Shown here piece after piece: positions 2,735 through 64,000 of a stretch of DNA of 64,000 nucleotides. Source of the stretch: Azolla caroliniana (lineage: Eukaryota > Plantae > Polypodiophyta); the NCBI GenBank assembly GCA_043228905.1, contig JBHGNT010000001.1, forward strand, positions 25,606,001-25,670,000, written 5' to 3'. Each line of letters starts with the position of its first letter. Position 1 is the first letter of the stretch. Below the pieces are notes generated by a model that saw only the letters and a program-made list of their open reading frames with translations, did no database searches and was not told where the DNA came from. Position numbers and translations under genes: made by a program.

Positions 2735-2867
2735 ACGTTTACGTTCTTCTCTCTTTGTCTCTCCCAGGTATACTCTTTGTGTATTAAGCTTCTCCATTAA
2801 ACCTTCATCTTATTCTCTATTGCTATCTGGCTGAGCCGGTTCTGTCTAACGCTTCTGCATGTTAACA
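2735..2867 (+). repeat. 3' fragment of an unrelated LTR ending ..CGCTTCTGCATGTTAACA
   Basis: Resembles the LTR sequences at 22795-23193 and 48828-49295. It is the target of the family W insertion. Confidence 0.55.
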
Positions 2868-5500
2868 ATCACAAATATGACTTAGGCCAATCACTTTATT
2901 GTGTGTTGGTTTTATTGTTGTACAGAGAGTGACAAACAGAGAGGGAGAGAGAAAAATTAAGTATTCTCTGTTATAACCGCCGGTTGGTGAAGACATAGAG
3001 CTCGAGGTCATTTCCTCTGAGTTTCGCATTGTATCATTCCTCTTATAGTGATAGTTGGAGTGGGCTCTCACAAATTTTCCCTATTAGGGTTTTCCATGTT
3101 AACATCTTGTGTATGTCTCATTTCCAGTTTTTGTTTTCTTCCATATAGTGAGTAAGACTTAGTTGTGCTGAGCACTATTCCGCAAAATCTGGTATCAGAG
3201 CGAAGAACAAAGGAAATGGAAGATTCATTTGGCGGCATGTTTAAGTTCCCCGGCTCCAACTACCCAATTTGGAAGTCAACGATGAGGGACATGCTAGTGG
3301 TTAAAGACCTCTGGCTGCTGATACAATTTGGGGACAAGAAACCAGACAAGATCGAGGTTGCGACCTGGGAGGTGATGCACATGAAGACGATGGCATACAT
3401 TCAATGCTTCATCGACATGAGCATGTATAACAACTTCAACGAAGAAAGTAAGGCCCATGTGCTCTGGGAGAAAATCAGTACCATGTTGGAGAGCAAGAAC
3501 GTCATAAATCGGGTTTCGGTATTCTGGAAGTTAGTGAGACTCAGGTACCAAGATGGATCCACCATGGCAGAGCACTTGAATGCATTCCAGGGGTTGATAA
3601 ACCAAACAACCTTGTTGGAAGTACCTCTAGCCAACGAGGTGCTTGTGTTGCTGCTACTCGGTTCCCTCCCAGATAGTTGGGAGACGCTAGTTGTCACCTT
3701 GGGCAACACCGGGACGGAAGCAAAACTGTTGTCCCTAGCAAGGGTAAAATCAAGCTTGCTGGATGAAGAAGCTCATCGAAAGGACCGGGAGTCCGGAACC
3801 GGTCCGAAGGCCTTGGTTACAGAAGACGACCATAATCGGAGAAGAGGCCGGAATCGGAGTCCCCAGAACCGAGACAAATCGGGGACGAGGTTCAAAGTTA
3901 AGGGGGAGGCCCACTTGCTTTTATTGCGGAAAGCCGGGGCATTTCCAAAAGAATTGCCGACACTTCTGGAAGGAAAAAGGAACCAACAAGGTTGACTCAA
4001 AGAAGGGTCCGGACCGGAGAAGTTCGGATAAAAAAGGAACGTTGACAATCGGGACAAGTGAAGAAGAACTGCTACTAATCACTGAGGAGAGTGAGTTGCA
4101 GCTTGTCAGCGACGCCGGAGAGCACGATTTTGTCCAGATGGGAAATGAAGGTGCATGCCAAATTTTCGGTATAGCAGAGGTGTGGTTGACGACGTTAACC
4201 GGGTGCAAGTTGTTGGTGAAAGATGTCTAACATGTTTCGGAGGTTCAGTTAAACCTGATATCAACCGATCGGCTAGATGATGAAGGCTACACGGGTAGTA
4301 ATAAGTATCTAGAACAGAGTCATAATGTTTTGCAGAGGAATCCTGATAGTGGCTCATGCTGGGAAGATCAACACATTGTACCTAATGCATGCCAGATATG
4401 CCGGGAAGAAGTGAACGTGGCATCCGAAAATGCCGGTGAGTTGTGGCACAAGAGGTTGTGTCACATGAGCTAGAAAGGGATGAGAAGACTTGCTGAAGAT
4501 AGCCACATTCCGGAGGTGAAAGACATGCAGCTTGAGAAGTGCACTAATTGCTTGGCCGGCAAGCAAAACCGAACCTCTCTCTAGACCTGACCACCGTCGA
4601 GACGGAATGTACCATTGGAACTTGTGCATACTGATGTATGGAAAATGGACATGAAATCACATGCTAGGTTGCAGTACTTCGTGACGTTCATAGACGACCA
4701 CAACCGGAAGCTGTGGTTCTCACCGCTGAAGACAAAGAACAAGGTATTATCTGTCTTCAAGGAATTCCACGCGAGAGTGGAAAGGGAAACTGGCCGGAAG
4801 CTAAAGGCGGTTTGAGTGGACAACGGAGGAGAATATTGGGGGCAATTCAAGGAGTACTACCAGTCGAAGGGAATCCGGCTCGAATTTACTGTACCGAAGA
4901 CACTAGAACTGAACGGGTTGGCCGAAAAGATGAATCAGACCGTAATGTGGAGAGTTCGCAGTATGCTTGCACATGCCATATTGTCCAAGACATTTTGGGC
5001 TGAGGCACTAATGACAACGACGTACGTGATAGACATATCACCCTCGGCGCCCTTGGAAGGAGACACATTGCAGAAAGTATGGAGCGGTAAAGACGTGTCT
5101 TACCGGCATCTGAAGGTGTTCCGTTGTCTCGCCTACCTGCATGTTGCAAAGGACAAGAGAGCAAAATTGGATCCGAAATCCCAACCATGCATATTCCTTG
5201 TATATGTTGATGATGAATTCAGCTATCGAGTGTGGGACTTGGTCAACAAGAAGGTCTTCTAGAGTCGAGACATAGTCTTCATGGAAGACAAGAACATTAC
5301 TGACTAGGAGTCGGAGAAGATGATAGTGGGCTTCAAGTCGATTGACAGAGATCGGTCAGAAGATACAAGGACTCATCCGGCCGGAAGCCGGATGACACTC
5401 GAAGAACCGGTTGGATTTGGACAAGAAATTGAATCGACCGAAGAAGAAGAAGAATCAGACACCCATCAGCATGACAGTGGACAAGGACGAGATGGTTCAG
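2868..5500 (+). mobile_element. Ty1/Copia remnant 1 (Tnt1/Tork-like): partial 5' LTR, PBS, gag, integrase; protease region deleted; 3' truncated
   Basis: PBS TGGTATCAGAGC at 3190-3201. Copia gag from ATG 3216. Zinc knuckle CFYCGKPGHFQKNC. Integrase motifs LELVHTDV, FIDDH, DNGGEY, NGLAE. Many stops and frameshifts. Right boundary approximate. Confidence 0.88.
3190..3201 (+). promoter_or_regulatory. PBS for tRNA-iMet
   Basis: TGGTATCAGAGC, the canonical plant Copia PBS. Confidence 0.9.
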
Positions 5501-5539
5501 ATCTACATCGGTGGTCTAGCACACCGGAGCGGGCCAATC

Positions 5540-6897: not shown

Positions 6898-7326
6898 TGT
6901 TACCGGCTGGCAAAGTAGTCCAGAGTGTGAAATAGAGGAGTTATTTAATTATTAAGGAATGGTTGTAAGTAAGCTATTAGTGTGGACGGACGGACCAGAA
7001 TCGGTATGCCGTTCCGGATCCGGACCGATCCCGAACACGTGCGGATGGCACTGTTTTGTACTACAAACCGGAAACCTATTTAAAGGCCCGAATACAATGT
7101 AATGAGCAGCGGATAATTAATGAAGCTTAGTGTTTTTATCTCTCTGTGTTAATTGGCGTTCTGCATTCATTGTTATATCTTACGCGTGTGATTATTAAGG
7201 ACGATCTTGCTAAGTAACCTATCGGATTAATCGTTGAGCCTAATCCTCTTGCCGTAACACCCCTTTGGTGAAGTGTCTTCCGTAGACACCCTGTGTTAGG
7301 CCATTGTCCGACCCTAAGAGTTAACA
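6898..7326 (+). repeat. 5' LTR of Athila-like element
   Basis: Direct repeat of 16392-16820. Confidence 0.95.
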
Positions 7327-7333
7327 CAGTTTT

Positions 7334-7343
7334 TGGCGACCAC
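7334..7343 (+). promoter_or_regulatory. Probable PBS (tRNA-Arg-like, 10 nt)
   Basis: TGGCGACCAC, 7 nt after the LTR. It matches my recollection of the plant tRNA-Arg(TCG) 3' end. The match is short. Confidence 0.55.
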
Positions 7344-7379
7344 GATTCCTGTTTTTGCAGCGAACGACGGCACGAATGG

Positions 7380-10300
7380 ATGACTAGATCAACGCACGAC
7401 CTGGTTACAGATCGAACTCGACGCCTTGCCGAAAGGCAAAGGAGACGTGAGGCTTTCCAGCAAGCGGCGCAAGAAATTAGAGCGGATTGCTCGTTTTCCT
7501 ACATAATCTGGAGAGTAGTAGAGGAGTCCCTCTGGTTACAGCAAACATCGCACCCGGACGACGGCAACAGTCTAAGCAGCCTCCGGGAAACCGAATCCCT
7601 TCTCCAGGCGTTGGCAAGCGGAGAAGGCGAAGCATAAGCCTTTTCAGTATATGAATCGGATTCCGAAGGGGAATACAGCGTGCACACGAACTACTGTAGC
7701 AGCAACGAAACCCCGGGCGGACCGGAGGACGAAGGATCGGACACCTTACCGACACCGGAACCGGAAGTGCTAAGGCTGGAACCTCCGGAACCAGAAGCAG
7801 AGGAAGAGCGACCTCCGACACCGGAAGTCGAGGAGGAGAGGCCTCCGTCACCAAAAGAAGAGGAAAGACCACCGACGCCGGAGACAAATCAGGAAAGACC
7901 ACCGACGCCAGAGAAAAACCAGGAACGACCACCAACACCACCAGCCCGCGCACCGATACCGGACGACGACATGCCATTCTAGTACTCCAAGTATAGAGAT
8001 GATCCAGACGCGGAAGCTCATGTTCACGCCTTTGAACAGACATGGGAAGCAAACCATGTGTCCCAGCGATTGACCCCGGAGGAAGAGGAATGCTCTAAGA
8101 TAGCGGAATTTGGCGTCACATTGGAGGGACCGGCAACAAGATGGCACCGGACGTAGGACCCGTCTACCATCACCACCTTCGCAGATTTAAAAGCTAAATT
8201 CTTGCATTTTTTCCAAAAGGAGGTGGACCAGATAGTAATGGTGGGCTTGTTTTATACCATCCGACAGGAGGAAGGGGAGAGCATTCCCCAGTTTGTCATC
8301 CGGTTTCAACGGATGCATAGTCAGCTTGCCCGCGCACCCCCGGAGGAGGAATTACGGACTATATTCCTAAATGCGCTCCGGGAACCCCTACGCACGGTTT
8401 GCACGGTAATTGACTTCTGCGCAAGTACCATCGACCAGGTCATTGACTGGGTGAGAGAGATGGAAAAGACAAGCTCCTGGCTCACATTGGGAGCACTCCA
8501 ACGGGCGTTACCGTCCGATGAAGACCTCCGGTTTCGGCAAGCAATACAGTGCACAACCTGCTTGAATTCCGGACACTCGGCACTAGAATGCACGATGAGG
8601 ACGCAATGTGTAATTTGTCAATCCAAGGGCCATACGATGGATAGGTGCGAGTATAATCTATTGAACTGGCAAGCACCACCCGTTCGACAAATAGAGCCAC
8701 GCAACAGCCGGGATGAAGAAGAGGAACGCTGGCGGCGAATGGACCGATACCGATCAGCAAAGGATGTCCGGTATGGCGATCGACGGGAGAATGATGTCCG
8801 GTACGATGATCGGCGGGATAACTACGACCGGCACGATAGAAATGATCGGTACCGGGATTACAATAGACGATACGAACATTACGACCGGGAGCACTCCCCC
8901 GGGTATCGTCAGCAATGGGAGGAATACGGCAGATATAACGACCAACCTCGTCAAGAGTACCGCAATAAGAAGAACTATAACAAAAAACGGCATTTCAAAA
9001 AAGGCGGCCACCCACGGGATCCGGAACAAGGAGCTTCAAGCAGCCAACCGGCCCAAAACCCCGTGCTTACCACGGGACTTGCCTCGAGTACAACAGACAA
9101 TGCCGAATCCAGCAATACCCGAAAAGCCTACTGCTACTACTGCCGACAGGAATGCCATTATAATAATCAATGCCCGGCGAAGAGCTATGACAAACGACCG
9201 ACAGTAAATATGGTAGTCCCTGAAGTGGCAAATCTGCAGCAGGTGACCACAAGGTCGAAGGGCATGGCCAAGGAATGTGAGACGTAGGAGACCATCCGGA
9301 AGCAAGCAACGGAATGGGTGAAGAAAGCAAACGAGCAAAACGTAACAGACTTAGAGCGGCAAAAGGAGAACACCGTAGGGCTTGCCGGCGGCAGTCACTC
9401 CGAGAACGAGACATGGCAGGCATTGCAAGAATGCCAGATTACGCTGCCACTAGGAAGACTCCTACAGTTCGTGCCGAGATTCACGGAAGGACTGAAGACA
9501 GCCATGACGGAAGGAGAATCATCACCGGCACCGGTACTCTTCTCGAATCCGAAGGAGGGACCAATGGTGGTGGACACCAATAGTCTGGTAATTATTGCCA
9601 TTGTAAAAGGGAAAGAATTCCCCGGCACAGTAATAGACAGAGGCTCTGGTGTGAATGTAATAACCCTCCAGACGTGTGATGCCCTCGGAATCCACGAGTG
9701 GGAGCCGTGTCCGTTCTGGTTACGGATGGCCGATACAAGTTCAGTACGGCCGATAGGATTAATACGAAAATTGGAAGTCACCATTGGCGGTCATACATTT
9801 CACATCTCGGCAGTAGTGCTACAATTACAGGCATAAGGTGCGTACTCGCTATTGCTGGGGCGGCCATGGTTGAAAACGGCACATATCAAACAGAATTGGA
9901 GGAAAAATATAATTACCTTCCGGCGAGGAAAAGCCAAGGTACGTGTACCAACACAACCAAGGACGAGCACTGGCAAGGAATGTACACCGTTGTATGCAGA
10001 GTGCGTCAACATGCTAGAAGGGTTAGCTGACGAAGAAGAAGCTCAGTACTTGCAGGAAAACCCGAAGATCGTACCCCTCTTCGAAATTGACATTGCCGAA
10101 GCAGTAGCACCATACTTACTGCAGCCGGAAGAGACTGAACCAGAACCGGATAAGGATGCAATCCGAGAGTTACGGCAAGCGCAGGAAGCATTGGAACGGG
10201 AAATGGCCATTTCATAGCGCATAAAAGCGTCGCAACTTGAAGAGGTGAACCTAGGGACCACGGACGAAGCAAAACCGGTGCACATCGCCAAGGAGATGAA

Positions 10301-13164
10301 GTCCGAAGACAAAACGACGATGATCACACTTCTCACGGAATTTCGCGACGTGTTTGCCTGGTCATACGAAGACATGCGAGGGCTCGACCCTCAGTTATAC
10401 CAGCATCAGATTCACTTGAGCAAGGACGCAAAACCAGTGGCACAAAGACGGTACCGGATGAATCCCAATTATGCCGCCAAAGTCAAGGAGGAAATCGACA
10501 AACTGCTAAGAGTTGGCTTTATCCGTCCGGTAAAGAAAGCGACATGGCTAAGCCCGATCGTAGTTGTACCGAAGAAGAACAGAAAAATTCGAGTTTGTGT
10601 GGACTACCAGAAACTCAATGCGGCTACGGTAACGGATGCGTTTCCACTTCCGTTCACAGATGGAGTGTTGGATGCCGTCGCCGGCCATGAGGTCTATAGC
10701 TTTCTAGACGGATTCAGCGGGTATAATCAGATCCGGATGCACCCCGACGACCAAGAGAAAACGGCTTTCGTCACTGAATGGGGGGTGTTTGTGGTCGTGG
10801 TGATGATGTTCGGACTCAATACGGCACCGGCAACATTCCAACGAATCATCATGGAAATCTTTGGTGAATATATCTCGGCTTTTATGCAGGTTTTCCTTGA
10901 CGATTTCACCGTCTATAGCCGGGAAGAGGACCATTTTCAGCACCTCCGTCTTTGTCTAGAAAAGTGTAGAGCGTACCGGCTAAGCTTGAATCCGGTGAAG
11001 TGTGTATTTGGTGTGTCCAGTGGAACCCTACTAGGACATATTGTGAGCAAGGAAGGCATTGCAGTTGACCCGGACAAAGTGAAAGCCATATTAGAAGCAC
11101 CGGCGCCGGCAACAGCAAAGGCATTGAGCCGGTTCTTAGGCCAGATCCGGTGGCACAGCTGGATGCTCCGATACTTGGCCGACCTGGCTACACCATTGCA
11201 TGCCGCGGTACATCGAACACCATTCCAATGGATGGACACCGAGGATAGGGCGTATAGGGCCGTCAAGGTACTATTGTCACAAGCACTGATAGTGCAGCCT
11301 CCGGATTGGAGTAAAGAATTTCATGTGTTCGTGGATGCCTCCAACATCGCAATCGGAAGCGTACTGATGCAGCTTACGGAGCCAAAGTGTTACCGGCCAG
11401 TGTACTATGCCAGCCGAAAGCTATCCCAAGCAGAACGGAACTACTCTACCACGGAACGGGAAGCTCTAGGGATGATCTACAATGTGACAAAGTTTCGGCA
11501 TTATTTATTGGGAAGGAAGTTTTCCTTCCATGTAGATCATTCGGCACTCCTCTACCTGGTGTCCAAGGCGTCACTCACCGGTAAGTTGGCCCGGTGGACC
11601 TTACTGTTACAGGAATTCGAGTTCGAAATATTCCACCGACCCGGTATATAGCATGCCGTAGCGGATTATTTAAGCCGATTAGAGTCCGGAGAGACGGGCG
11701 ACGGAGTAGCGGACGAGTTTCCAGATGCGGAGCTGTTTCGAGTCACTACGGAAACGGTAGCAGATGAGACGGTGGCACAGGAAGACAAGTGGCTCACAAA
11801 TATGCACCAGTTTCTGAGCACATGACTGCCTCCGGAAGAGATGAACCGGGACGAAAGGAAACGCCTGGCGGTGCAAAGCCGACATTTCTGCTTACTGCGA
11901 GACACACTTTACCACAAGGGCGCGAACGGCATATGGAGACGGGCTGTGCGCAACGATGAAAAGGACCTCATACTGAGGGAAGCCCACTGCGGAGTTGCCG
12001 GAGGTCACTATGCCGGAGATATGGCAAAGTGGCCTATGGTGGCCAACTACATTAAGAGATGTTGTACGGTACGCAAAAGAATGTGACCTATGCCAACGAA
12101 TGGGCTAGCCAACGGAGCAAGCTCAGATGCCACACCAGCCTGTACTACCACTCGAACCATTCCAGAAGTGGGGGTTGGACTTTGTTGAACCGTTCAAACC
12201 ACCGGCAATGAGAACAGGTAATTGGTACGTCATCGTCGCGACGGATTACTGCATGAAATGGGTGGAGGCCAAAGCCTTAAGAGACAACACCGCTGCGTCA
12301 ACGGCAAAATTTCTATACGAATACATCTGGTGCCGTTACGGATGCCCAATCGAATTAATAAGCGACCAAGGGGGGCACTTTCTCGGCCAAGTAGTTGAAA
12401 GCCTGACGACATTCTATGCCGTTGTCCATAAATAGAGCACACCGTACTATCCGCAAGCAAACGAGTTAGTTGAGTCGACGAACAAAATGCTCCAGAATAT
12501 CCTCCGGAAGATTGTCAACGAAAACCGAACGGATTGGGATACCAAGCTACATAGCGCACTTTGGGCATACTGGACAACATACAAAACGAGCATCCGAACA
12601 ACACCATTCCGGTTAGCGTTCAGACTAGAGGCGGTCATGCCGGTGGAATTCCAAGTACCAAGCTTACGGATCCAGCTACGGCTGAACGAGAAGGAGTCGG
12701 AGCCAATACGGTTAACAACGCTGTTTGAACTCGAGGAACAACGACTGGCAAGCATCCTGCACTTGGAATTGGAACAACGGTGACGGAAAGCATTTGTCGA
12801 CCGGCACAGGAAAGGAAATGAAAAAATGTTCGAAATCGGCAAGCTGGTGTTAGTATTTCAGACCCAGATGGGCAAGATGCCGGGTAAACTACGGTTTAGA
12901 TGGACTGGCCCGTATTGGCTGACACGTGAGTATAATGGGTCCTACCAGTTAGGGACACTTGCCGGCGAAGTGCTAGGCAAATGGGTCAACGGATTCAGTT
13001 TGAAGCCATATAGAGGACCGATGCCCAAGAACCCATTTGAGCAAAGGACCGACACCGGATCGGGAACCGGTGAGGAAACGACAACCTGTGAGGGAAACGG
13101 CAACCACCAAGCCGGCAACTGTAATGAGGCCGGTAAGGGTCCGATAGGACCAACGGACAAGTAA
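7380..13164 (+). pseudogene. gag-pol polyprotein (gag, zinc knuckles, protease, RT, RNase H, integrase) with premature stops and a frameshift near 12020
   Basis: ORF pieces at 7293, 7680, 8202, 9318, 9852, 10245 and 11841 share one frame. Motifs: VIDRGSGVN, FLDGFSGYNQI, FLDD, VDAS, WGLDF, ISDQGGHF, RWTGPY. Confidence 0.92.
7745..7950 (+). repeat. Degenerate ~30-bp tandem repeat in gag encoding (E)ERPPTPE
   Basis: About five ERPP[TS]P units in ORF 7680-7982. Confidence 0.8.
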
Positions 13165-13550
13165 CCTCACACTACATTAAAATTTAAAAAAAAAAATAAA
13201 AAGAAAATAAAAAAGCGAAGTAATCATGCAAAAGCGAGGTATGAATGGACGAGAGAGCGAGGAGCGAAAAGGTACGTAGTGGGCATTTAAGCGCCGCCAC
13301 AGGACATAATGCTATTTTAGTACACGACGTGCACACGCTCGAAAAAGGCGCCAGAATGCACAGAGAAAAACCACTGCGCATGGGGACCCTCTACTTTCGC
13401 GAACCCAGGAGCACAGAAGCACCAAGGCATTGGAAGATCATCAGACGAGAACCTACGCACAGAGAACCCCCGCTTTCTGAACTCTCTCTCTCTCACTCTC
13501 ACTCTCATCACCATCCAACCTCGCCACCACAATCCGACCTCGACATAGAC

Positions 13551-16336
13551 ATGGACCCACAAATGTTGTCGGAAGCCACCAAGAAATGGCTAAAGCAACA
13601 TCGGCTCGAGGGCTTCTTGACGATTATGGAGGCACTGCCACACAAAGAAGCCGAAAAGGTGATCAAAGAAATCGACACAGAGGTCATAACGGATGAGGCG
13701 ATCCGTGCGTTAACAGGCCTTCCGGAGGGAGGCATATTCACGATTGACAATCCGACCTCGGAGCAACTCATCAAGTATTTTGGTGAGTACTCCCTAGCCA
13801 GCAAGGGCTACCGGACACAGGGCGGCGAAGATATGTTGTTCCGCGAGATTGCCCGTGTGCTCCACGAATACGGCCATGTGTACCCTAGACCCCCTGTCAT
13901 GCCGCAGAACCGGGCAGGGATGATCATCGCCACCTATGAAGGGAACAAGGTGGATTGGCTGGTATTGATCGCAGACGGTTTGTGAGCGGCGATCGAGATC
14001 GTCAGAGGAAAAGACGGCAAAGAAGGCCGAGACGGACGGAGGATATGGCACCCAGTAACGCAGTGGCTCACCTTGCTTGTGCCACTCATCGAGCCCGTCC
14101 AGCCCAAGAAGCGGGGAAGAGTGGCAGACGGCACCCCAAAGACTGCTTCCAAAAGACAACAGTTGTTGGCCTCTAAGGCCCTAAGGGGAAGGCGGCGGAC
14201 GCAGAACAGGCGGGAAAGGAGAGCGCTAGTCAGAAGCGGCCAATGGATGCGCAGGAGGAACCACCGGTACGGCTCGTAAAGATTACACTCCGCCGACCGA
14301 TGAATAGAGAAGCGGACCCCTTGGCGGCGAAACTCAATGCCGGGACTCAGGAGGAGGAAATAGAGGAGGAGTCTATGGAGCACCTCCAACGACGATCGTT
14401 GGCAAGGACCGTTGAGGCAGCCGGGAAATGTTCGGACCCTCAGACGGAGGGAACACCGGCTCCCCATACTGAGACTCCCACGCCAAGGGAGGAACCGAAA
14501 CCGGTGCGCATGGCACTAGAATCAGAAGCCCCTGCACCATCGGCAGCATCGGCAAGTCAAATTCCGCCAGAGCCGAAAAGGTCAATGCAACCTCCCTCGG
14601 CCAACCAAGAAGAAGTGCAAAGGGAACCAGGACAGCAGGGTGGTCCACGGGCAAAAACGGAATTGCAACTCGGCGAAATCAGGCAGGACCACCCACCTAC
14701 AAGCGAGCCCATCCGTCAAACCTCCGTGCAAGCGCAACAACAATGCACCGGTAGCCTATGGCTCCAGTGGATAGGCGAACAGATTGCCGGAGTGGGGTAT
14801 ATTGAGGCGGAAGAAAGAGCGCAAAGCGAACGGTTGCTCGTCACAACCGAACAACTAGAGACGGCCCGGTCCAGAATCCGGTGCCTTGAAAAAGACTTGG
14901 ATCAGGTCATGGCAGAAATAGCCAAAATGGCCTTAACGACAACACAGATCCAATCACCGGTGACTCCGGTAAGTGTACAGAATAAAGAAATAGACCAACC
15001 TGTACATACTAATAAGACCCCGGCAATGGAAACCGTTCCAGAGAGAGATGCGGCGCAAGCCCAGGAGCTTGCGGAATTGAGAGATGAACTTGCCACACAA
15101 GAAGTGCTAAGGAGCCGTGAACAGGAATTGAAGACAATGGCCGACGCCGAATTAAAGAAGATGGCTGAGAACCTCCGCCGGGCAGAGGAGAGCCTCCGGA
15201 AAGGCCATCAAGCTTACGACCGGCTAAGGGAGGAAAAAGACAAAGTGCTGCAGGAAAAGGACAAGCTGCGGAAGACAACGGAAACAGAAATTGAACGGCT
15301 AAAGGAGGAGCTCTGCCAGCAGAAGGACCGCGAGGGCCGGGCCCGTTGACAGATCAACGTATGGCTCAAGCAAAAGACATATGATTTTGAGCACCTGCAT
15401 CGGGACTACAAACGGCTGGAAACATAGCATAAGGAACGGATGGCCGAGCTCCGGCAGGAAGTTGATCAGGCTGCGACGGCGCTCGCCGACGATCGAGCGA
15501 AAAATACAAGACGGTTGGACGAGGCGGAGAAGGTCCGGATGGAGCTCCAGAGTCAACAGCAGGAAGAAAGGGAGAGAGCGACAATGGTACTGAAAAAAAT
15601 TACAAAGCACATATCAAAGCCAATTGATGCATTATAAGGAGCAGGCGGAAGACAATGTCAAAATCATCAAGCAATTGAAGGAGGAACGGCAAGCTGCGGA
15701 GATCAAATCACAGATGGGAAAAGGCCGGATTCAGTCATCCTCCGGGCATGGCTGAATCAGACAAAACGCTTGATTGACGAAAGCTCCGTAAGATGGTGGA
15801 CAAAGTGGGCACAAAATACGGCGGAACTCCAATTGCTACGGGCAGACGTGGAAAACCGACGGAAGGAAGGAGATGATTGTTACACGTTGACTTCCGAGGA
15901 TTTCACCGCCATACGGGACGAGCTGGCTGAAGACTTCCAAGTCCTGGCGGATGAACAATTGGTTCAGGTCTGGCAACTCTTAGCTCAGCTAGACGATGAT
16001 AGGCTGGACGCGCAAATCCAGTTTGAAAGCTACGAGCGGTCTCGGGTTCGGGAAGAAAAAGCATGGGAAGCGGGAACGGTTAACCTTAGTGATGAGGAAC
16101 CGTCGCCGGCCGAGGGCCAGGCTGGAACCAGTCAACCGGAGACCACTATGACGGAGGGAGCAACGATGGAAACGCCGGTGTCAGAGCAACAAACGGAGGA
16201 GCAGCCGCAGCAGCCATCAACGGAGCAGCAACAACAGCAACAACAACCACAACAACAACAACAACAACAACCAATTCCAGATGAACCATTGGAGACTCTC
16301 GAACAAAGCATTCTGGATATTTTGGACGAAGAATAG
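13551..16336 (+). pseudogene. Extra ORF 3' of pol (~930 codons): globular N-terminus, low-complexity linker, long coiled coil, polyQ/acidic tail
   Basis: ORF pieces 13245-13985 and 14073-14279 share a frame. After a frameshift near 14190, pieces 14243-15349, 15440-15637 and 15770-16336 share a second frame. The start codon is uncertain. Confidence 0.75.
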
Positions 16337-16391
16337 CAAGGGTCGGATGGTGGATTCGACGTACAAGGTACTGTCCCACGGGCGTGCCATG

Positions 16392-16820
16392 TGTTACTGG
16401 CCGACAAAGTAGTCCAGAGTGTGAAACGGAAGAGTTATTTAATTATTAAGGAATGGTTGTAAGTAAGCTATTAGTGTGGACGGACGGACCGGAATCGGTA
16501 TGCCATTCCGGATCCGGACCGATCCCGAACACGTGCGGATGGCACCGTTTTGTACTACAAACCGGAAACCTATTTAAAGGCCCGGATACAATGTAATGAG
16601 CAGCGGATAATTAATGAAGCTTAGTGTTTTTATCTCTCTGTGTTAATTGGCGTTCTGCATTCATTGTTATATCTTACGCGTGTGATTATTAAGGACGATC
16701 TTGCTAAGTAACCTATCAGATTAATCGTTGAGCCTAATCCTCTTGCCGTAACACCCCTTTGGTGAAGTGTCTTCCGTAGACACCCTGTGTTAGGACATTG
16801 TCCGGCCCTAAGAGTTAACA
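16392..16820 (+). repeat. 3' LTR of Athila-like element
   Basis: Direct repeat of 6898-7326. Confidence 0.95.
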
Positions 16821-17320
16821 AATGTCATGATATGGCAAGACTCGAACCCATGACCTTATGCTACAGGGGTCGAGCTCTTGACCATTAGACTATACATTGT
16901 AATATATAGAATATTTATTTATGTTTTATTATAGAAAATTGATGTATATTCCAGATTTCTCTGGAACATTCTAGAAACTTCAGGAATATTCCGTAGAACA
17001 CTATAAAAGGAGGCACAAGGCATTATTTCGAACCAAATCGGTTCAACGCCAGTCTTAAGCCTCCTAGCTACTGTACATTTTCTTCACATAATATATATCT
17101 TTTCTTACCATCACTCTCGATCACTCTCGATCTCTCTCTCCCTCCCTCTCACTCACTCTTTCCTTCTCTCGAGAGTTCTTCACCTCTCTGAGTACTAATA
17201 CTTCTTTTAGTACTAAGTCCTTCTCTGTCTTAGTACTGTTCCTGACAGTTTGAACCGATTTTTCTACCTTCTGTCTCTCTCATTTCCTACTAATCTCTTA
17301 TTCCTCTTTTCTTTCATCCC

Positions 17321-18471
17321 ATGGCCACTGTTAGCGCTGAAGAACATCAATCTGTTTTCTCGGAATTTCAATGCTTGAAAGAGAAGTTCCATGCTTTGGA
17401 ACAAGAAAACCAACGGTTGCTGGGGGATCTTCAGTAAATCTCCTTAGAAAAGCAGCAAACGCAACAACAACATGGGGAACTTGCGTTACACGTGCAACAA
17501 CTCGAAGCAACCATCGTAGCGATGCAACAACAAGGGCCCGGAACACAAGGGATTAATAAAGAACCCAAGATTGGCCTTCCCACGAAGTTCGATGGAATGC
17601 GATCGTAGTTTAGAGGGTTCCTTAACCTGGTACGATTAGTTATTCAAATGCATCCTTCCCGGTATCCCACAGATGCATCACAGGTGGGTTTAGTAGGCAC
17701 TTTGTTAAGTGGCTCAGCGTTGGCATGGTTCGCTCCACTATTAGAAAAGGAATCTCCGTTACTCAACAATTTTGAAGAGTTTCTAGGTGAGTTTAAAGCA
17801 TGTTTCGGAGATACTGACAGCATCAAGACTGCAATCAACCAAATTCGGCGATTACGCCAAGGTGATCGTCCAGCCTCCGCATACGCTGCAGATTTTTACC
17901 TACTCGCCGCCGATATTCCTTGGGATGATCAAGCGTTGATGGAGCAATTCCGTTATGGTTTACGCAACGACGTCAAGGATTTACTCTTGACCTTCCCCGA
18001 AGAGCCAAAGTCCTTAACAGAAGCAATCAGTCGCGTGGTGAGATGTGACAATCGCCTCTTTGAGCGACGTTCGGAACGACAACTACAGATGCCGAGGGCG
18101 AGATCAGAGCCCACCTACGCCTCAGTGGTAGCAAGACCTTTTCCGAGGGAGTCATATAATGCGCCTCCAACGAATACTCCGACTCCGATGGAGATTGACA
18201 CTACACGTCGTCGAGGGCCATTATCCGAAGAAGAAAAGCAGCGACGTCGTACAAATCGACTATGTCTTTACTGCGGTGGACCAGGACATATTGCAATAAA
18301 TTGCCCACATAGGCGAAGAAGACAGGTAAACCAAATAGTCGTTAGTTCTAATTGTACTAAACCCGAGCCTATTTCAGTAGGGATATCTAAAGTCCTAATA
18401 GTACTAATAGCCCAGATCTAGCGAATAGATTTGATGTCCTTAGTCAGTTAGAAGAAGAGTTAAACGACTAA
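17321..18471 (+). pseudogene. gag of chromovirus (capsid-like, CLYCGGPGHIAINC knuckle), disrupted
   Basis: ORF 17648-18421 has PTPMEID and a CCHC knuckle. The upstream part is broken by stops. Confidence 0.85.
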
Positions 18472-21400
18472 GTCCAGCCAAAATAGGAGCCGTTTGGTTG
18501 GACAGCCCTAAATCTGTGCAACCCATTAGTGGTTCCATTCCCTCTAAGCAAGTTAGTGATGTGTTCGTAGCCCAAGTAATAGTTAGTACTAAAAGTACCC
18601 CTCTAGTACATGTCATAGCACTCCTAGATTCCGGAGCTAACTCTTGCTTTATGGATAAGAAATTTGCTCAAGCTCATAAGATATCCCTAAGAAAACTCCA
18701 GTGTCCAGCCTCTGTAGTAGTTATTGATGGACGTCCCATTGCCTCCAGAAATATCATAGAAGAGTCAGAGCCCATTAATATTGTCCTAGATAACTTAGCA
18801 TGTGTAGTATCATTTAATATTATTAGTATCCCAGAACATCCCATAGTTTTAGGATTACCGTGGTTCGAGTTACATAACCCAGACATAGATTGGAGAACAA
18901 GAGAAATCCGGTGTTAACAAACCCAAGGGTCAACTCAGAAGATGGCAACCATTTCGCTACGTCAGTTGCGTAAAGAAGGGCACAAGGAGGAAATGTTCCT
19001 CTTTGCAATATCAGTAAACCCCTCCAGCACCACTAAAGAAGAATCCACCATTCAACTTCCCGAGAAGTATCGTCATTACGCCGATGTGTTCGATAAAGTA
19101 CAAGCCAACACACTTCCTCATCATCGACCGTACAATTGCCCCATCGATTTACAACCGGGAAAAGAGCCGCCATGGGGACCGATCTACAATTTGTCACCAA
19201 CCGAGCTGGAAGTCCTTCGGGCCTATATAGAGGAGAATTTGGAAAATGGTTTCATTCGGCATTCGAAATCTCCAGCGGGCGCGCCCATTTTCTTCGTCAA
19301 GAAAAAGGATGGATCTCTTCGTCTCATTGTAGATTACCGTGGCCTGAATAAGGTTACAATCAGGAATAGGTATGCTCTTCCCCTTATCTCAAGTCTTTTA
19401 GAACGGATCAATGGTGTCAGGTTCTTCACGAAGATCGACTTACGGGGAGCATATAACCTCGTACGGATCCGACCAGGAGACGAATGGAAGACTGCGTTTC
19501 ACACTAGATATGGGCATTTCGAGTATACGGTCATGCCGTTCGGCCTCACTAATGCACCGACAGTCTTCCAGCACATGGCTAATGATATATTCCGCGATCT
19601 TTTGGATGATTGTTTGATCATCTATTTGGATGATCTACTGGTTTATTCAAAGACCCAAGAAGAACATGATTCTCATGTACTATTAGTACTAAAATGACTT
19701 CGAGAACATGGTCTATATGCAAAGCTGGAAAAATGTAGTTTCAAGTGCAACCAAGTGGAATTTCTCGGCTACATCATTTCATCAGAAGGCATCTCCATGG
19801 ACCCAGCTAAGGTCAAAATGGTGGTAGAATGGCAGACTCTGCGTTCGGTGCGAGATGTGCAATGCTTCCTAGGCTTTGCCAATTTTTACTGGAAGTTCAT
19901 ACAAGATTACTCAAAGATCGTTCTACCTCTCACACAACTTACCAAGAAGGGACAACCGTTCATCTGGTCTGAAGAAACGGATGTGGCTTTCGAGAGTCTT
20001 AAAAAGGCATTTACATCGGCTCCAATTCTAGCTCATGTCGATCCGGAAAAACCATTTATTATCGAAGCTGACGCATCGGATTTTGCATTGGGGAGCATTC
20101 TATCACAACAGGGGAATGATGAGAAGCTACATCCTGTGGCTTTTCACTCACGCAAGTTCCACGCCGCCGAAATCAACTACGAAATTCATGATAAGGAGCT
20201 ATTGGGGAGCATTCTATCACAACAGGGGAATGATGAGAAGCTACATCCTGTGGCTTTTCACTCACGCAAGTTCGACGCCGCCGAAATCAACTACGAAATT
20301 CATGATAAGGAGCTATTGGCAATAGTGGATTCTTTTATGCAATGGAGGCATTTTCTGGAGGGATCCTCTCATCCGGTCACCGTATTTAGTGACCACAAGA
20401 ACCTTGCCTACTTTCAGGATGCTCGTGTGTTGAATCGACGTCAAGATCGGTGGGCCCACTTCCTCACGCATTTCGACTTCAAAATTACATATCATCCGGG
20501 GAAGCACCAAGGGAAGGCAGATGCATTATCACGGTGTTCGTATCTAGCACCCCGTCCTGGCGAGCCAACTTTCGATAACCAAAAACAAGTCATCTTGGGA
20601 CCGGCACGACTACAAGCAACACAGATCTTTGACATGCCCATGGAGTTCCGCGTTATCAATACCATACGTGAAGACTTGAAGACAAATGCGTTTGCCCAAG
20701 CTATACTAGCACAAATTGATCCCTCTTGAGCATCGTGTTCACAGTCGCAACCACCAGGTACGGACTATCGACAATTCAAATACCATGATAGATTACTCTT
20801 CTTTAAAGAACTTTTGTATGTTCCTAATGGTTCTTGCCGCCTTCAAGTAGTACAAAACTGTCATGACACATATACAGCTGGGCATTTTGGTAGTACTAAA
20901 ACACTACATTTAGTACAACGATCATTCTGGTGGCCCTGTATGCGACAATTTGTTGAGGATTTTGTTCGGACTTGTGATACATGCTGCAGAGCGAAAATGC
21001 CAAGGCATCATCCATATGGTTTATTAGAACCATTACCAATTCCAAGCAAGCTGTGTCAGTCCATTGCTCTAGACTTCATCACAGATCTTCCAGTCTCTAA
21101 AGGGTTCAATGCGATTCTAACAGTGGTAGATCGATATACGAAGATGGCTCATTTCTTGCCATGTACTAAGGAGATCTCCAGTGAAGACACTGCCGAAATT
21201 GTCATGTGTGAAGTATGTCGGCATCATGGACTTCTCAATAGTATCATCAGCGACCGTGGACCCCAGTTCGTGTCAAAATTCTGGAAGCACCTTTTTAACA
21301 TGCTCAAGGTCACTTGTAACCTCTCCTCTGGCTACCACCCACAAACCGACGGCCAAGCCGAACGAACCAATCAAACGCTGGAGCAGTATCTACAATGCTT

Positions 21401-22172
21401 TCTCAGCTATCATTAGGATGACTGGGCAAATATTCTCCACTTCGCCGAATTTGCCTATAACAACTCTATCCACGCATCCACTAAAGTTACGCCATTTTAT
21501 GCTTATACGGGATGTCACCCCCGGTGGTGTGTACTTGAAACCCCAGAGGTGTCCACAAATCCTTGCGTAGAGGATCGTTTGGAGAGGTTATCTACTCATC
21601 TCCAACAAGGTCAAGAAACACACAAGGTTTATGCGGATCGTCATCGACTCCCATCTAGTTTTAACATTGGAGATCGGGTATGGCTACTCCGACGACACAT
21701 CAAGACTACTCGCCCATGTGAGAAGTTGGATTATCGGCGATTAGGTCCCTTCTGTATTATAGGAAAGATTAATGATGTTGCTTTTCATCTTGATCTACCT
21801 CCACAACTTCGGATACATCCGATGTTTCATAGTTCTCTCCTTGAACCCTATCAAGAGAGCACCATCCCAGGACGTATTACACAGCCTCCACCCCCGATCA
21901 AGCTTGAAGATGGACCTGAGTACGAGGTTGCTGCCATCCTTGATTCCAAGCTTGTTCACAACAAGCTCTACTTTCTAGTCGATTGGCTAGGATATAGTCC
22001 CAGCGAGCGTACTTGGGAACCGATAGAGAATGTCACCAATGCTCGTGCTCTTCTTGAAGACTTCCATCGTCAATATCCAGACAAACCGGGTCCTCAATCC
22101 AAAACGACTCGTTACACTCGTCGTTTTAAAGGGGGGGATAGTGTCATGATATGGCAAGACTCCAACCCATGA
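18459..22172 (+). pseudogene. pol of chromovirus: protease, RT, RNase H, integrase, chromodomain, with in-frame stops
   Basis: LLDSGA, KIDLRGAY, YLDD, EADAS, IALDFITDLP, SDRG, LGPF and YEVAAILDS..YFLVDWLGY..TWEP. All pieces are in one frame. Confidence 0.93.
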
Positions 22173-22579
22173 CCTTATGCTACATGGGTCGAGCTCTTAA
22201 CCATTAGACTATACATTGTAATACGTAGAATATTATTTTCATTTATGTTTTATTATAGAAAATTGATGTATATTCCAGATTTCTCTGGAACATTCTAGAA
22301 ACTTTAGGAGTATTCCGTAGAACACTATAAAAGGAGGCACAAGGCATTATTTCGAACCAAATCGGTTCAACGCCAGTCTTAAGCCTCCTAGCTACTGTAC
22401 ATTTTCTTCACATAATATATATCTTTTCTTATCATCATTCTCTCTCTCTCTCGATCTCTCTCTCCCTCCCTCTCACTCACTCATTCCTTCTCTCGAGAGT
22501 TCTTCACCTCTCTTAGTAATAATACTTCTTTTAGTACTAAGTCCTTCTCTGTCTTAGTACTGTTCCTGACAACAAATCC

Positions 22580-22794: not shown

Positions 22795-23193
22795 TGTTAA
22801 GCGGATAAGCTCAACTGGATTCAGATAGGCTAAATAAACCAGAGTCGGATCGATATCTAGAACGGAGAATCGGATCGGTGTCCGGATGGTATCCGAAACC
22901 AAGAGCCGGATCGGATTGGAACCAATAGGCCGTTGGAGGCCTACGAATCTAGCCTAGTACGTAGGCATATTTTTGGGAGTCAATGTCAGTCGCTCGTATG
23001 AGCATTGATGTACATGTCAATACTTCTGTCAGTCTGTGTAAAGACTTGTATAAAAGTGCTCTCTGAGCACATTCTATGTACAAAGTGTTACTATTTTGAA
23101 TTGAGTTTCATGTTGTTTTTCTCTCTGTGTCTCTGTGATTCAAGCTTCCATTAAACCTTGTCTCTTTTTTTTGTTATTATCCGGATAAACCGG
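22795..23193 (+). repeat. LTR (5' part) of another family inserted into the Copia RT, itself interrupted
   Basis: Starts TGTTAAG exactly where the RT frame breaks. TATAAAA near 23049. Similar to 48828-49295 (inverted) and 2735-2867. Confidence 0.65.
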
Positions 23194-26857: not shown

Positions 26858-26904
<47 letters not shown>

Positions 26905-35305: not shown

Positions 35306-35320
35306 TCCGCCCCCACCTAA
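35306..35320 (-). promoter_or_regulatory. Polypurine tract TTAGGTGGGGGCGGA
   Basis: Abuts the 3' LTR and is conserved in the other family W 3' ends. Confidence 0.85.
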
Positions 35321-35377
35321 CCGCGCATCCGCCGGCATGCGCCAAATTAAGTTGGCACGGAGAAAACCGGCCCGCCT

Positions 35378-40992: not shown

Positions 40993-41014
40993 TTCCCACT
41001 CTTCTGCCGCCTCT

Positions 41015-41032
41015 TTCACGTCGGGTTCACCA
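41015..41032 (-). promoter_or_regulatory. 18-nt PBS complementary to the plant tRNA-Trp 3' end
   Basis: TGGTGAACCCGACGTGAA, 3 nt from the LTR. Plant tRNA-Trp ends ..TTCACGTCGGGTTCACCA (recalled). Confidence 0.88.
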
Positions 41033-41035
41033 AGA

Positions 41036-41751
41036 TGTCGGGGTTACTACGCCCTTGCGTGTAGAAAGGAGGAGGGACCACGGGGGTCTCGAACCGAAGA
41101 GCGAGAGAGAGAGAAGAAAGAGAGAGACCCGATTACACAGAACCGAAGATCCGATTGCGCAGAACCGACGATTGCACAGGGACACGGCCCAACAAACAGA
41201 GATCACAAATGAACGCCGACACAGATGGACGCAACAACGAGAGATAAGTACTTATGAATGCAAGAAAACAACAGACTAAAGTATTACAACCCACGGTGGG
41301 GCACAAAATAGATGCTAACGAAAACGAACAGGGCGGCGAACAGCTGCCGACCCCTGTATGTCGCGACGCACAGAAGGGGAAAACAGGTCGGAGGTGCTGC
41401 AGGACGCACTCGGGGCGTTCCACGGAACAGCGCAAGCCTCCTCGAAACCTGCACAGGTACGCGATGGAGCAGAAGACAGAGAGAGCAGGAGTGAGAGAGA
41501 AGCTCCGAAATCGGTTCGGCAGCACTTCGTCCTCTCCGCGGGAGATGTCCTTCTCCTATTCTCCCTCTTCCTTTTTATAGCCCGTCAAGCGGCCGTTTGG
41601 CATTAACTGCATACCAACCGAATCTGCCCACCTAGGATCCTCGTATGTACCTACTTCGTCCTTAGGTACTTCTTGGCGCGCGTGTGTGTGTAGAGCCGTT
41701 TCCCACGCCTTGTTCCTCCGATTCCTCTTGTGGGCGGTTTTCTTCACGACA
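41036..41751 (-). repeat. 5' LTR of intact element
   Basis: TGTCGTG..CGACA. TATAAAA on minus strand near 41573-41579. Confidence 0.97.
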
Positions 41752-44700: not shown

Positions 44701-45445
44701 TGTTCGTTCTCCATCGCTCTTCTCTGCAGGTTTTCGGGAGGCTCGCGTTGCTTCGAGGAACGCCCGTGTGCTTCCGGCAGCACCTCCATCCTATCCCCTT
44801 TCGTGCGCAGACGAGCAGGCATCGGCATCTGTTCGTGGGCCTGTTCGGTTGTAACCGCTCGCGTGCTCTGTTGTTTATTTGTCATTCATTAATATACAAA
44901 CATTCGTGTCTCTCTGTCTCTGTGTCCATTCATGTCTTTTGCGTTGACAGGGTCGTGTCCCTGTGTTTCTTTGCTCATACGTAACCGAGCGTCTCTCTCT
45001 TTCTCTTTCCCCTTCTATCAGCTGTTGTTTGGTTCAAGACCCCGGTGGTTCCGCCTCGTTTCTCCACGCACGCGCGTAGTAACGTGATAGCGCCTAGGTT
45101 GCCGTCACTAGTCGGTTTCGGTCCGAACCGGGTCTCGTACCTTTGCGGGGGTACACCACGTTGGTCCTGAGCGCATCGGTGAAATCTGCGCAATCCTTCC
45201 GAATGTGACTGATCGCGTAACACCACATGCACCGCTGCCCAGCCGGCGGCCTCCGGTCGCAAGGTTGTTCGCCGCTGTCTCTCCGGGCCTGTGCGATCTG
45301 CAGGTCGCGCACCATCTATGTCAGCTCCTCTAGAGCCGCTCCTCCGGATGTGCCTCTGACCACGTCATTCGATGCCGACCCCGACTCTGGCCAGATTCGG
45401 GTCTCTTCCTTCCTTCCAGCCGACACCGATACCGGCTCCTCAAAC

Positions 45446-49778: not shown

Positions 49779-50401
49779 CTTGGTCTTCATCTTTCTCTTA
49801 TTCCCTTAAGGTTTGTACTTTGGGCTTTTCACCCTATTTCGTTGAGGCTTTCAACTTGGCAGCTTTCTTCTTCTTCTTACTTTCTTGTTTTCAGGTAGGG
49901 TTCTTCGACTTGTTCTTCTCCTTCGTGTCCGTTTAGGGTTTAGTTCGGGGAAGAGCTTGTATGTTCAATGGGGTTTGCTTCTGCTCGGTCTCCTGTGCAA
50001 GACCCCGCTCGGCACAACGAGCCCGAGAGCTTCCCGATTGGCGGCTTGGCAGCAGACGGTTGTTGTAGCCTAACCTACCTGGGTCCGGCTCAAAGCCGGA
50101 ATAGTATCTTTCTCTGGTAATTATATATATAAAAGGTTGTACATATTTGTGTTTTTGTTGGTGTCAAGTGTGTTTCTTTCCCTTTGTTTCCTGTACATAA
50201 GAGGCGTGTGTTGAGTCAGTGTTGCACGCGTGGTCTCTCTCTCTCTCTCTCCCTCGCTCGTGTTCAGTAGCCCCCGGTACGCGTCCGGAATCACACCGGT
50301 TTGTGCCACAACTGGTGCAGCCAAGCCCGGAGGGAGTCGGCTTCTCGACATCCATCTCTTCCTCGTCCGAGACCCTCGTGGTCCCACCCCTTTCAACACG
50401 T
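49779..50401 (+). repeat. Partial LTR of the 23194-24098 type
   Basis: Collinear with about 23475-24070. Confidence 0.8.
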
Positions 50402-53860: not shown

Positions 53861-53919
53861 TCGCGTTGTTACGTGCGTACGCGTAGAAAGGGGCGGGACC
53901 ACGGGGGTCTTGGACCGAG

Positions 53920-53951
<32 letters not shown>

Positions 53952-62800: not shown

Positions 62801-63117
62801 CAGCGCGAGCCTCCCGAAAACTTGCAGAGAAGACCGATGGAGAACGAACAGGGGAGAAGCCTTCGGTTTCGGTCCCACCGCACTTCCTCCTCCTCAAAAT
62901 AATAATATATCCCTTTCACGTTGCGTCTCCCTCTCTTTTATAGCTTGAAGAAGGGAGTCGTTTCCCTCATTAAATTCCTACCTACCGAATCTAACTACCT
63001 AGGATATACCTTTGTACCTAATTCTCTATTATATACATTAAAGGGCGTGCACGCGTGAAGAGCCGGTTCATGTGCGCTATGCACCGATTGCGCTAAGGGA
63101 CGGTTTTCTTCACGACA
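56859..63117 (-). mobile_element. Near-complete decayed family W element lacking its 3' LTR (5' LTR 62462-63117, PBS 62440-62457)
   Basis: gag, protease, frameshift site (60336-60342), RT, RNase H and integrase fragments appear in order. The LTR is the same type as 44434-45089. Confidence 0.9.
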
Positions 63118-64000
63118 CCGTGACCGACCCGCAGATGTTCGTCATCGTGGAGATGGGCTCTACCTTTGCCAGACACGGTTTCCTACCGTAAGGCCCGCAC
63201 AGGTGTCCGACCACCAAGATCTCCGATTGTCCGAGGGCCGACTTTTCCCCGGAGAAGGTGAGCCTCACGCGCTCTAGTCTCTACAGCACCTTCTCGCAGT
63301 CATCGATGTGGGACGCCACGAATTTCTGACATCCGTCCGGCCCGATTGCCTCGTCCCTTTTCTGCACCGGGCATCCCTTGATCAGGATGTCGTCTAAGAA
63401 CGGCATGGTTATGTCCGGGATACAATCCTTGAGCACTTTGTTCATCGTGTTCACCATGTGAGCCACTGAGTTCGTCCCTCCTTGTGGCAGGGTACACATC
63501 CGCACTAAGCCGAGAGGAGTCCGCATCGTCGTAATGTCTCTGCTCTCCATGGCTTGTTGGAACTGATCGTACCCCGAGTACAGATCACCGACAAAATAGA
63601 TCGACCTTCCAGCGAAGGCCTCCGCGAACTCGTCTATGGTCGGTCCGATCCCTGCATTATGGATGGTCACCTTGTTGACCGGTTGTAGGTCCTGGATGAA
63701 GTGCAGCATGTCGTTCTTCTTCGGCACCGTAAACCACCGATTCTAATACGGGGCACTCGACGGTTCGAGGATGCCCATCTCCACCTTTTGCTTCAGAAGC
63801 TCCATCAACTTCGGGATGTGAGCTCTCGGCACCGGAATCGGTGAAGTGCTGGTCGATCTCAACATCGCCGATTTTCACCCGTACGTTCGGGCAAGCCCCA
63901 TGTAGTTCTTCCGTGGTGCGCGTCGCTACCCGTATCTTCCAGCCATGCTTGGTGTTGATCAGCCATTTACCTTTCTTGTAGAAATCCATGGACATCAGGT
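63118..64000 (-). pseudogene. Family W RT fragment fused by deletion (~63840) to a protease fragment; runs off the window
   Basis: ORFs 63281-63727 and 63657-63995. Confidence 0.85.

What the first reader, a model, noticed from the sequence alone, without database searches (positions are those of the whole stretch)
2735..63121. A Gypsy group that makes 4-bp TSDs and appears to integrate specifically at CpG (NCGN)
Seen: three family W insertions with both flanks have 4-bp TSDs. They are CCGC (26213/31376), GCGC (34540/45090) and GCGC (34586/41752). The 4-bp length is confirmed against uninterrupted homologous copies in this window for CCGC and the 34586 GCGC. Four more outer LTR ends abut ACGT (2735), CCGG (23190), ACGT (50398) and CCGT (63118). 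All 7 have a central CG, while the other Gypsy elements here have ordinary 5-bp TSDs (AATCC, ACAAA). Established: plant LTR elements mostly make 5-bp TSDs with weak sequence preference; CG-rich 4-bp targets are known from Drosophila ZAM/Tirant. Inference: this chromodomain-less integrase reads CpG, possibly methylated CpG, which would steer it into its own CpG-rich copies and explain the self-nesting.
Basis: partly seen in the sequence, partly recalled or inferred. Interest (0 to 1): 0.8.

Follow-up and report, generated by a model that had tools for sequence, protein, structure and literature searches.

The report
Phygy-type retrotransposon inserting at CG
A plant jumping gene here almost always lands in the middle of a CG pair and copies four bases, but this habit was already published for the moss 'Phygy' lineage, to which it likely belongs, and whether it senses DNA methylation is untested.

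Summary
All 7 sites are as stated. Empty-site alignments give exactly 4 bp for two insertions, and offsets agree for the third. In related metagenome contigs, 73 of 76 distinct 5' LTR flanks and 19 of 20 3' flanks have a central CG; background CpG is 3.3%. The preferred site is the palindrome ACGT.

It is not new. Neumann et al. 2019 (PMC6317226) report that the Phygy clade makes 4-bp TSDs with an NCGN preference (186 elements). Family W fits Phygy in TSD, domain set and layout. I could not test it against Phygy reference sequences, so it is a likely member.

Best mechanism: the integrase itself reads a symmetric, bendable CG-centred site (inferred). No methyl-reader domain was found. Methylation dependence is neither supported nor excluded. 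CpG density could explain at most about a threefold self-nesting bias.

The scan noted a similar NCGN habit earlier in a fungal genome (e1-10582392). What is added: a flank logo, relatives beyond moss, and an intact young copy for testing.

The parts
34590..41751 (-). Full-length family W element, 7162 bp, youngest copy (element C)
   Evidence: LTRs 41036-41751 and 34590-35305 are 100% identical over 716 bp; two long open frames
38866..41043 (-). ORF1: gag-like region with Cys/His knuckle and a protease-like C-terminal part, 725 aa stop to stop
   Evidence: Pfam DUF4100 only; protease assignment by eye
35378..38881 (-). ORF2: RT, RNase H, integrase; 1167 aa stop to stop; no chromodomain, one RNase H
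35378..36727 (-). Integrase: HHCC zinc finger, DDE core (D139, D198, E233 in my numbering of the 449-aa stretch), SH3-like C-terminal domain with GPY motif, acidic tail
41015..41032 (-). Primer-binding site, 3 bases after the 5' LTR; complement of the CCA-ending small RNA listed as miR894
   Evidence: PMC5846777 Table 3; that this is the 3' end of tRNA-Trp is recalled, not from a call
35306..35322 (-). Purine-rich tract abutting the 3' LTR
   Evidence: same tract in 26 metagenome loci
34586..34589 (.). Left TSD GCGC of element C (inside the 5' LTR of element B)
41752..41755 (.). Right TSD GCGC of element C
34544..45089 (+). Element B, internally deleted W copy interrupted by element C; LTRs about 95% alike
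34540..34543 (.). Left TSD GCGC of element B (in a W gag region)
45090..45093 (.). Right TSD GCGC of element B
26217..31375 (+). Element D, degenerate W copy; LTRs 26217-27037 and 30578-31375, 93% alike
26213..26216 (.). Left TSD CCGC of element D (in a W integrase region)
31376..31379 (.). Right TSD CCGC of element D
2735..2738 (.). One-sided flank ACGT at the 5' LTR start of a minus-strand W copy; local CpG only 1.5%
23190..23193 (.). One-sided flank CCGG at the W LTR 23194-24099; local CpG only 1.5%
50398..50401 (.). One-sided flank ACGT at a W-like LTR start (weakest of the seven)
63118..63121 (.). One-sided flank CCGT at the 5' LTR start (62462-63117) of a minus-strand W copy, inside W pol
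6898..16820 (+). Control: unrelated Gypsy element with 5-bp TSD AATCC
16823..22571 (+). Control: chromovirus with chromodomain and 5-bp TSD ACAAA

Best explanation
Family W is a chromodomain-less Ty3/Gypsy retrotransposon that inserts with a 4-bp stagger around a CG pair, likely belongs to the Phygy lineage, and likely gets this specificity from its own integrase reading the target sequence rather than from a methylation mark. Shown: 4-bp duplication, near-strict central CG, a mirror-symmetric preference A>C>G>T at the first base and T>G>C>A at the last, and an ordinary Gypsy/foamy-type integrase with no extra reader domain. Inferred: two integrase active sites cut 4 bp apart across a sharply kinked pyrimidine-purine step, as in the foamy virus intasome; base contacts then narrow the choice from any flexible step to CG. 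Candidate contacts are the SH3-like C-terminal domain with its conserved basic loop before GPY and the acidic residue three places after the second catalytic Asp. Stacking of W in W follows only in part from W's own CpG richness.
For: 73 of 76 and 19 of 20 flanks NCGN; ACGT in 31 of 73 against a 5.9% share of background NCGN words; symmetric edge bases. CA, TG and TA steps are each about twice as common as CG in the flanks but fill only 1 of 76 centres, so bendability alone is not enough. Contigs of four public runs of three coded organisms give the same pattern: loose ends after the LTR begin ACGG, ACGT, CCGT or the purine tract, or continue after GCG (24 of 35 rows shown). Phygy description matches: 4 bp NCGN, no extra domain, no extra ORF. 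RT tree: W groups with Riccia sorocarpa and unnamed sequences (100/99) among fungal and Chara relatives, apart from the window's two 5-bp Gypsies. The model (pLDDT 82.5) matches foamy virus and Ty3 integrases first. Precedents without need of a mark: ZAM integrase binds CGCGCG in oligonucleotides and not a mutant (PMC2527525); 4-bp retroviruses favour a central YR step (PMC4422553); Ginger1 makes CCGG or CCGT/ACGG (PMC2836005).
Against: No Phygy reference sequence was available, so clade membership rests on features. Element C (7162 bp) is below the Phygy size range 7656-9968. The primer tRNA could not be identified by a tool. The host methylates CG in these repeats by the transition footprint, so most available CGs are probably methylated and the data cannot separate CG from methyl-CG. 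The foamy virus residue matching W's Glu201 contacts bases outside the duplication, where I see no bias, so it is a weak candidate. Only 3 of 11 two-ended metagenome contigs have matching 4-mers.
Confidence: 0.68

Rival explanations
1. The integrase needs, or is strongly helped by, 5-methylcytosine at the central CG, so the element steers itself into already silenced repeats.
For: Young W copy pairs show a methylation footprint: C/G transitions at 13-14% of CG sites, 7-16% of CHG and 1-3% of CHH sites. Flanks are CpG-depleted (observed/expected 0.73), as expected of long-methylated DNA. 5 of the 7 window sites lie in W itself. Phygy is reported enriched at centromeres in a liverwort (PMC12885004). 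A 1992 paper on CpG methylation and retroviral integration in vitro is listed in a review (title only).
Against: No chromodomain or methyl-binding domain by Pfam up to E 10, by language-model look-alikes or among the top 50 fold ranks listed. CG-centred targeting is shown for ZAM on synthetic DNA. A methylation footprint in W shows that W is silenced, not that its target was methylated at insertion.
Confidence: 0.17
2. A host CpG-binding protein tethers the integration complex and sets the site, as TFIIIB does for Ty3.
For: Ty3 is among the closest solved integrases; W integrase has a long C-terminal region and an acidic tail of unknown role.
Against: A bound protein would cover the CG, yet the CG sits exactly between the two cuts; the preference is mirror-symmetric and stops at the edge of the 4 bases.
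Confidence: 0.07
3. W is a separate lineage that reached NCGN targeting independently of Phygy.
For: No Physcomitrium-named protein among the hits; size below the Phygy range; CG-centred targets arose several times.
Against: Same rare TSD rule, same lack of extra domains and ORFs, a primer site that I recall as tRNA-Trp, and bryophyte relatives at 60-73% identity.
Confidence: 0.07
4. The pattern is chance in GC-rich DNA, or the CG belongs to the LTR.
For: The window is 53% GC with no CpG depletion.
Against: 73 of 76 in flanks of 43% GC; two window sites in 1.5% CpG sequence; inner LTR ends lack the 4-mer and empty sites contain it once.
Confidence: 0.01

Closest known systems
Phygy clade (Ty3/gypsy|non-chromovirus|Phygy; Neumann et al. 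2019, PMC6317226; passages, section 9 and Additional file 5 read)
   Same: 4-bp TSD with NCGN preference; no chromodomain, no extra domain, no extra ORF; coding region fills the internal part; probably the same primer tRNA (Trp; identity recalled).
   Different: Sequence-level membership not tested. No mechanism is given in the passages read.
Ginger1 DNA transposons (Bao et al. 2010, PMC2836005; passages read)
   Same: Gypsy-type integrase with GPY/F motif; 4-bp TSD CCGG (75%) or CCGT/ACGG (24%); termini TGT.
   Different: DNA transposons of animals, with terminal inverted repeats and no RT; prefer CCGG, W prefers ACGT.
ZAM and Tirant errantiviruses of Drosophila (PMC5408687 passages; PMC2527525 abstract and passages)
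   Same: Palindromic CG-rich target; integrase alone binds the site in vitro.
   Different: Target CGCG has GC, not CG, as its central step; insect elements, with an env gene (recalled); kinship to W not tested.
Prototype foamy virus intasome (PMC4422553 passages; PDB matches)
   Same: Best structural and sequence match among solved integrases; 4-bp stagger with a kinked central pyrimidine-purine step.
   Different: Only a weak preference for any YR step; W is near-strict for CG.
Fungal Ylt1-like Gypsy lineage (PMC2864245 passages)
   Same: Non-chromovirus lineage of fungi; W's next relatives outside plants are fungal (Smittium, Zalerion, Phenoliferia).
   Different: Ylt1 itself was not among my sequences, so the link is a lead; I found no statement of its target motif.

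Membership tests
Phygy | RT/RH/INT phylogeny groups with P. patens Phygy references | not testable with these tools
   Reference FASTA and element table of PMC6317226 too large to read; no Physcomitrium-named hit
Phygy | 4-bp TSD | tested here: met
Phygy | NCGN target motif | tested here: met
   7 of 7 window sites; 73 of 76 and 19 of 20 metagenome flanks
Phygy | No chromodomain and no second (archaeal-type) RNase H | tested here: met
   Pfam scans
Phygy | No extra ORF; polyprotein spans nearly the whole internal part | tested here: met
   ORFs 35378-41043 cover the internal part 35306-41035
Phygy | Primer site for tRNA-Trp (81% of elements) | tested here: inconclusive
   Site complements the CCA-ending RNA miR894; no tRNA gene recovered, no paper linking the two; tRNA-Trp identity is recalled
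Phygy | Length 7656-9968 bp (descriptive; the authors call size of little use for classification) | tested here: not met
   7162 bp; authors' remark
Chromovirus (Tcn1, Galadriel, Tekay, Reina, CRM) | Chromodomain at the integrase C-terminus and chromovirus-type RT | tested here: not met
   No chromodomain; RT far from the window's chromovirus
OTA (Athila/Tat) | Large non-coding regions, extra ORFs or archaeal RNase H | tested here: not met
Selgy | 4-bp TSD without motif, 4.4-6.7 kb, tRNA-Ala primer | tested here: not met
   W has a strict motif and 7.2 kb
Ylt1-like fungal lineage | RT/INT phylogeny with Ylt1 and Tca3 | not testable with these tools
   No named Ylt1 sequence fetched; fungal neighbours are only suggestive

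The most novel reading that the evidence does not exclude
A plant retrotransposon integrase with no reader domain that recognises methylated CpG at its cut site, using the host's silencing mark as its landing signal, and whose CG specificity is shared by an old clade spanning bryophytes, Chara and fungi.
Probability: 0.15. Interest if true: 0.75.

Novelty: new member of a known kind. Interest (0 to 1): 0.27.

Why it matters
Near-strict sequence targeting is rare among plant LTR retrotransposons; Neumann et al. call Phygy the one exception, and I found no mechanistic study in the searches for Phygy (18 papers), NCGN (2 papers) or CpG insertion preference (1 paper). An intact copy with identical LTRs makes the question testable: which integrase residues read CG, and does methylation matter. 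If methylation mattered, it would link transposon silencing directly to where new copies land. The targeting rule itself is already in print.

Tried and rejected
No genome is held for the window, so no genome-wide TSD count. No relatives in viral contigs or prokaryote genomes. First read-laying over the whole LTR gave few flanks and skipped the end near a microsatellite. A single-sequence integrase fold was poor (pLDDT 36) and was not used. Attempts to name the primer tRNA failed: 31 viral loci held no tRNA, no match in prokaryote genomes, no paper with both miR894 and tRNA-Trp. My first guess, membership of the Ylt1 lineage, found no support in papers on target motif and stays a lead. Papers on P. 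patens RLG families gave no TSD data. A search on fern methylation gave nothing specific; Phygy with fern gave 3 papers; the two whose passages I read only list the lineage name. Comparing decay of the target CG (1 of 76 reads TG) with decay of a CG in the LTR start (5 of 76) as a methylation test was rejected: LTR changes can be inherited from parent copies. The 11 two-ended metagenome contigs were rejected as TSD-length evidence (3 match). The old pol-to-pol pair is saturated and shows no context bias; only the four young pairs do.
Full report
Observation. The window is 53% GC with no CpG depletion and is a stack of LTR retrotransposons. Three family W insertions have both flanks: element D (26217-31375, CCGC), element B (34544-45089, GCGC) and element C (34590-41751, GCGC, inside B's 5' LTR). 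Removing the insert plus 3 to 6 bases and aligning to uninterrupted copies gives gap-free best hits only at 4 bases for D and C; for B no hit spans the junction, but flank offsets on two copies overlap by 4. Inner LTR ends abut a primer site or a purine tract, so the 4-mer is target DNA. The two other Gypsy elements have 5-bp TSDs, AATCC and ACAAA. With local CpG of 1.5-9% the chance of 7 of 7 is about 1e-8 after allowing for 16 dinucleotides.

Independent test. No genome is held, so I scanned metagenome contigs for the conserved LTR start (120 loci, from 35 of 64 parts, about 220 expected in all). I set aside 13 loci with no LTR likeness beyond the pattern (4 of them also had a central CG), 26 ends on the purine-tract side and 5 duplicate flanks. 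Of 76 distinct outer flanks 73 have CG at positions -3 and -2, in flanks of 43% GC and 3.3% CpG. The exceptions are ATGG, CCTT and ATCT; two of these three flanks are W-like sequence. Of 32 LTR 3' ends found by pattern, 20 were outer ends and 19 have CG at +2 and +3. CG at -3/-2 on the left and +2/+3 on the right fits only a 4-base stagger. The edges are mirror-symmetric: first base A 48, C 14, G 9, T 2; last base T 46, G 13, C 10, A 4; ACGT makes 31 of 73 against 5.9% of background NCGN words. There is no clear bias outside the four bases. Caveats: the 107 LTR-bearing loci come from one series of assembly accessions and may be one or few hosts; their LTRs are mostly 66-90% like the window's, so they are relatives and not this genome; and in 11 contigs with both outer ends only 3 have matching 4-mers, which I read as assembly joins through a collapsed repeat (two contigs even join tract, LTR and primer site). 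Contigs of four public runs from three coded organisms show the same pattern at the LTR end (24 of 35 rows shown).

What it is. Element C is 7162 bp with identical 716-bp LTRs, a 725-aa gag-protease frame and an overlapping 1167-aa RT-RNase H-integrase frame. Pfam finds no chromodomain and one RNase H. The closest named proteins are from the liverwort Riccia sorocarpa (63% over pol; about 70% over RT); unnamed metagenome proteins reach 82-87%. In a search of 50%-identity representatives the next named relatives, at 42-48%, are from Chara braunii and the fungi Smittium, Zalerion and Phenoliferia (20 of 150 looked up, 7 carrying an organism name). An RT tree of 43 rows (40 picked homologues plus three window RTs) puts W with Riccia in a clade of 19 (100/99), among the fungal and Chara rows and far from the window's two 5-bp Gypsies, whose long branches make the root unsure. 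The primer site complements an 18-21-base CCA-ending RNA listed as miR894 (PMC5846777 passages); that this is the end of tRNA-Trp is my recall, and three tool attempts did not confirm it.

What is known. Neumann et al. [quoted passage not shown] Jedlicka et al. (author name recalled; PMC6911290, passages) also find 4-bp TSDs dominant in Phygy and 4-bp TSDs with GC-rich centres and AT-rich edges. A liverwort genome paper reports Phygy enriched at centromeres (PMC12885004, passages). W meets every feature I could test except size, which the authors call of little use. The defining test, phylogeny against Phygy references, was not possible because those files were too large. I file W as a likely Phygy member (about 0.85).

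Mechanism. An alignment-based model of the integrase (pLDDT 82.5) matches foamy virus and Ty3 integrases first, as does the sequence search. The C-terminal part is SH3-like, with no methyl-reader found. In the foamy virus intasome a 4-bp stagger needs a sharp kink at a central pyrimidine-purine step (PMC4422553, passages). CG is such a step, but CA, TG and TA are each about twice as common in the flanks and take only 1 of 76 centres, so base-specific reading must be added (inferred). The symmetric logo fits two equivalent active sites. Candidate contacts: the residue three after the second catalytic Asp, which aligns with foamy virus Ala188 (numbering recalled), is Glu or Asp in 152 of 152 close relatives and Pro or Gly in the window's two 5-bp elements; but in foamy virus that residue touches bases outside the duplication, where W shows no bias, so the conserved basic loop before GPY is at least as good a lead. 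CG-centred targets have precedents: Ginger1 (PMC2836005, passages) and ZAM, whose bacterially made integrase binds CGCGCG oligonucleotides but not a mutant (PMC2527525, abstract and passages).

Methylation and nesting. Four young W pairs show transitions at 13-14% of CG, 7-16% of CHG and 1-3% of CHH positions; an old pair is saturated. So the host likely methylates W, and most target CGs may be methylated, which makes the question undecidable from sequence. W has 8-10% CpG per position against 3.3% in metagenome flanks, so CpG density could give about a threefold self-bias. 5 of 7 window sites are in W, but only about 7-10 of 76 metagenome flanks are W-like (7 by DNA likeness, 3 more by protein likeness), a set biased toward unique flanks. 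The deep stack here likely needs regional targeting or retention as well.

Earlier notes of the scan. One note describes NCGN duplications in a fungal genome (e1-10582392) and pointed me to Ginger1; I did not check its data. Notes on this genome named the Neumann paper and suggested a fern host; I did not test the host. Nothing was noted near this finding.

Verdict. Real and strong, but a published property of a known clade: new member of a known kind, interest 0.27. The open part, whether the integrase senses methylation, is untested; I put it at 0.15.

Noticed in passing
window 34590-41751: Element C has 100% identical LTRs and open frames: a very recent, probably still competent insertion. 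Summed contig depth in public runs is in the thousands, so the family is abundant.
   Followed up: partly
window 38866-41043 and 35378-38881 (-): The frame break lies between protease and RT, not between gag and protease; the two frames overlap by 16 bases stop to stop. Many homologues are also recorded as separate 1100-1200-aa pol proteins. How pol is translated is open.
   Followed up: no
window ORF1 of element C, C-terminal part: The protease-like motif reads D-H-G instead of the usual D-S/T-G, and Pfam does not detect it.
   Followed up: no
window 41015-41032 (-) and other W primer sites: The primer site is the exact complement of the abundant plant small RNA annotated as miR894, which could target these elements.
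   Followed up: partly
window 2735 and 23190: Two independent W insertions lie about 100 bases apart within the same kind of CpG-poor repeat; a possible local hotspot.
   Followed up: partly
window 16818-16822: The chromovirus inserted across the end of the other Gypsy's 3' LTR, splitting that element's TSD.
   Followed up: yes
window 13245-16336 (+): The 5-bp Gypsy at 6898-16820 carries extra frames after pol with coiled-coil-like, Gln-rich sequence; the 390-aa one has no Pfam match.
   Followed up: no
window 20087-20319: A 114-base tandem duplication inside the chromovirus RNase H keeps the frame.
   Followed up: no
L002, L079: Contigs join purine tract, one LTR and primer site: tandem elements sharing an LTR, circles, or assembly joins.
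   Followed up: no
P0260, P0252, P0259, P0267, P0268 and others: 17 of 46 distant relatives, including a Smittium protein, share the Glu three residues after the second catalytic Asp; their target motifs are unknown.
   Followed up: partly
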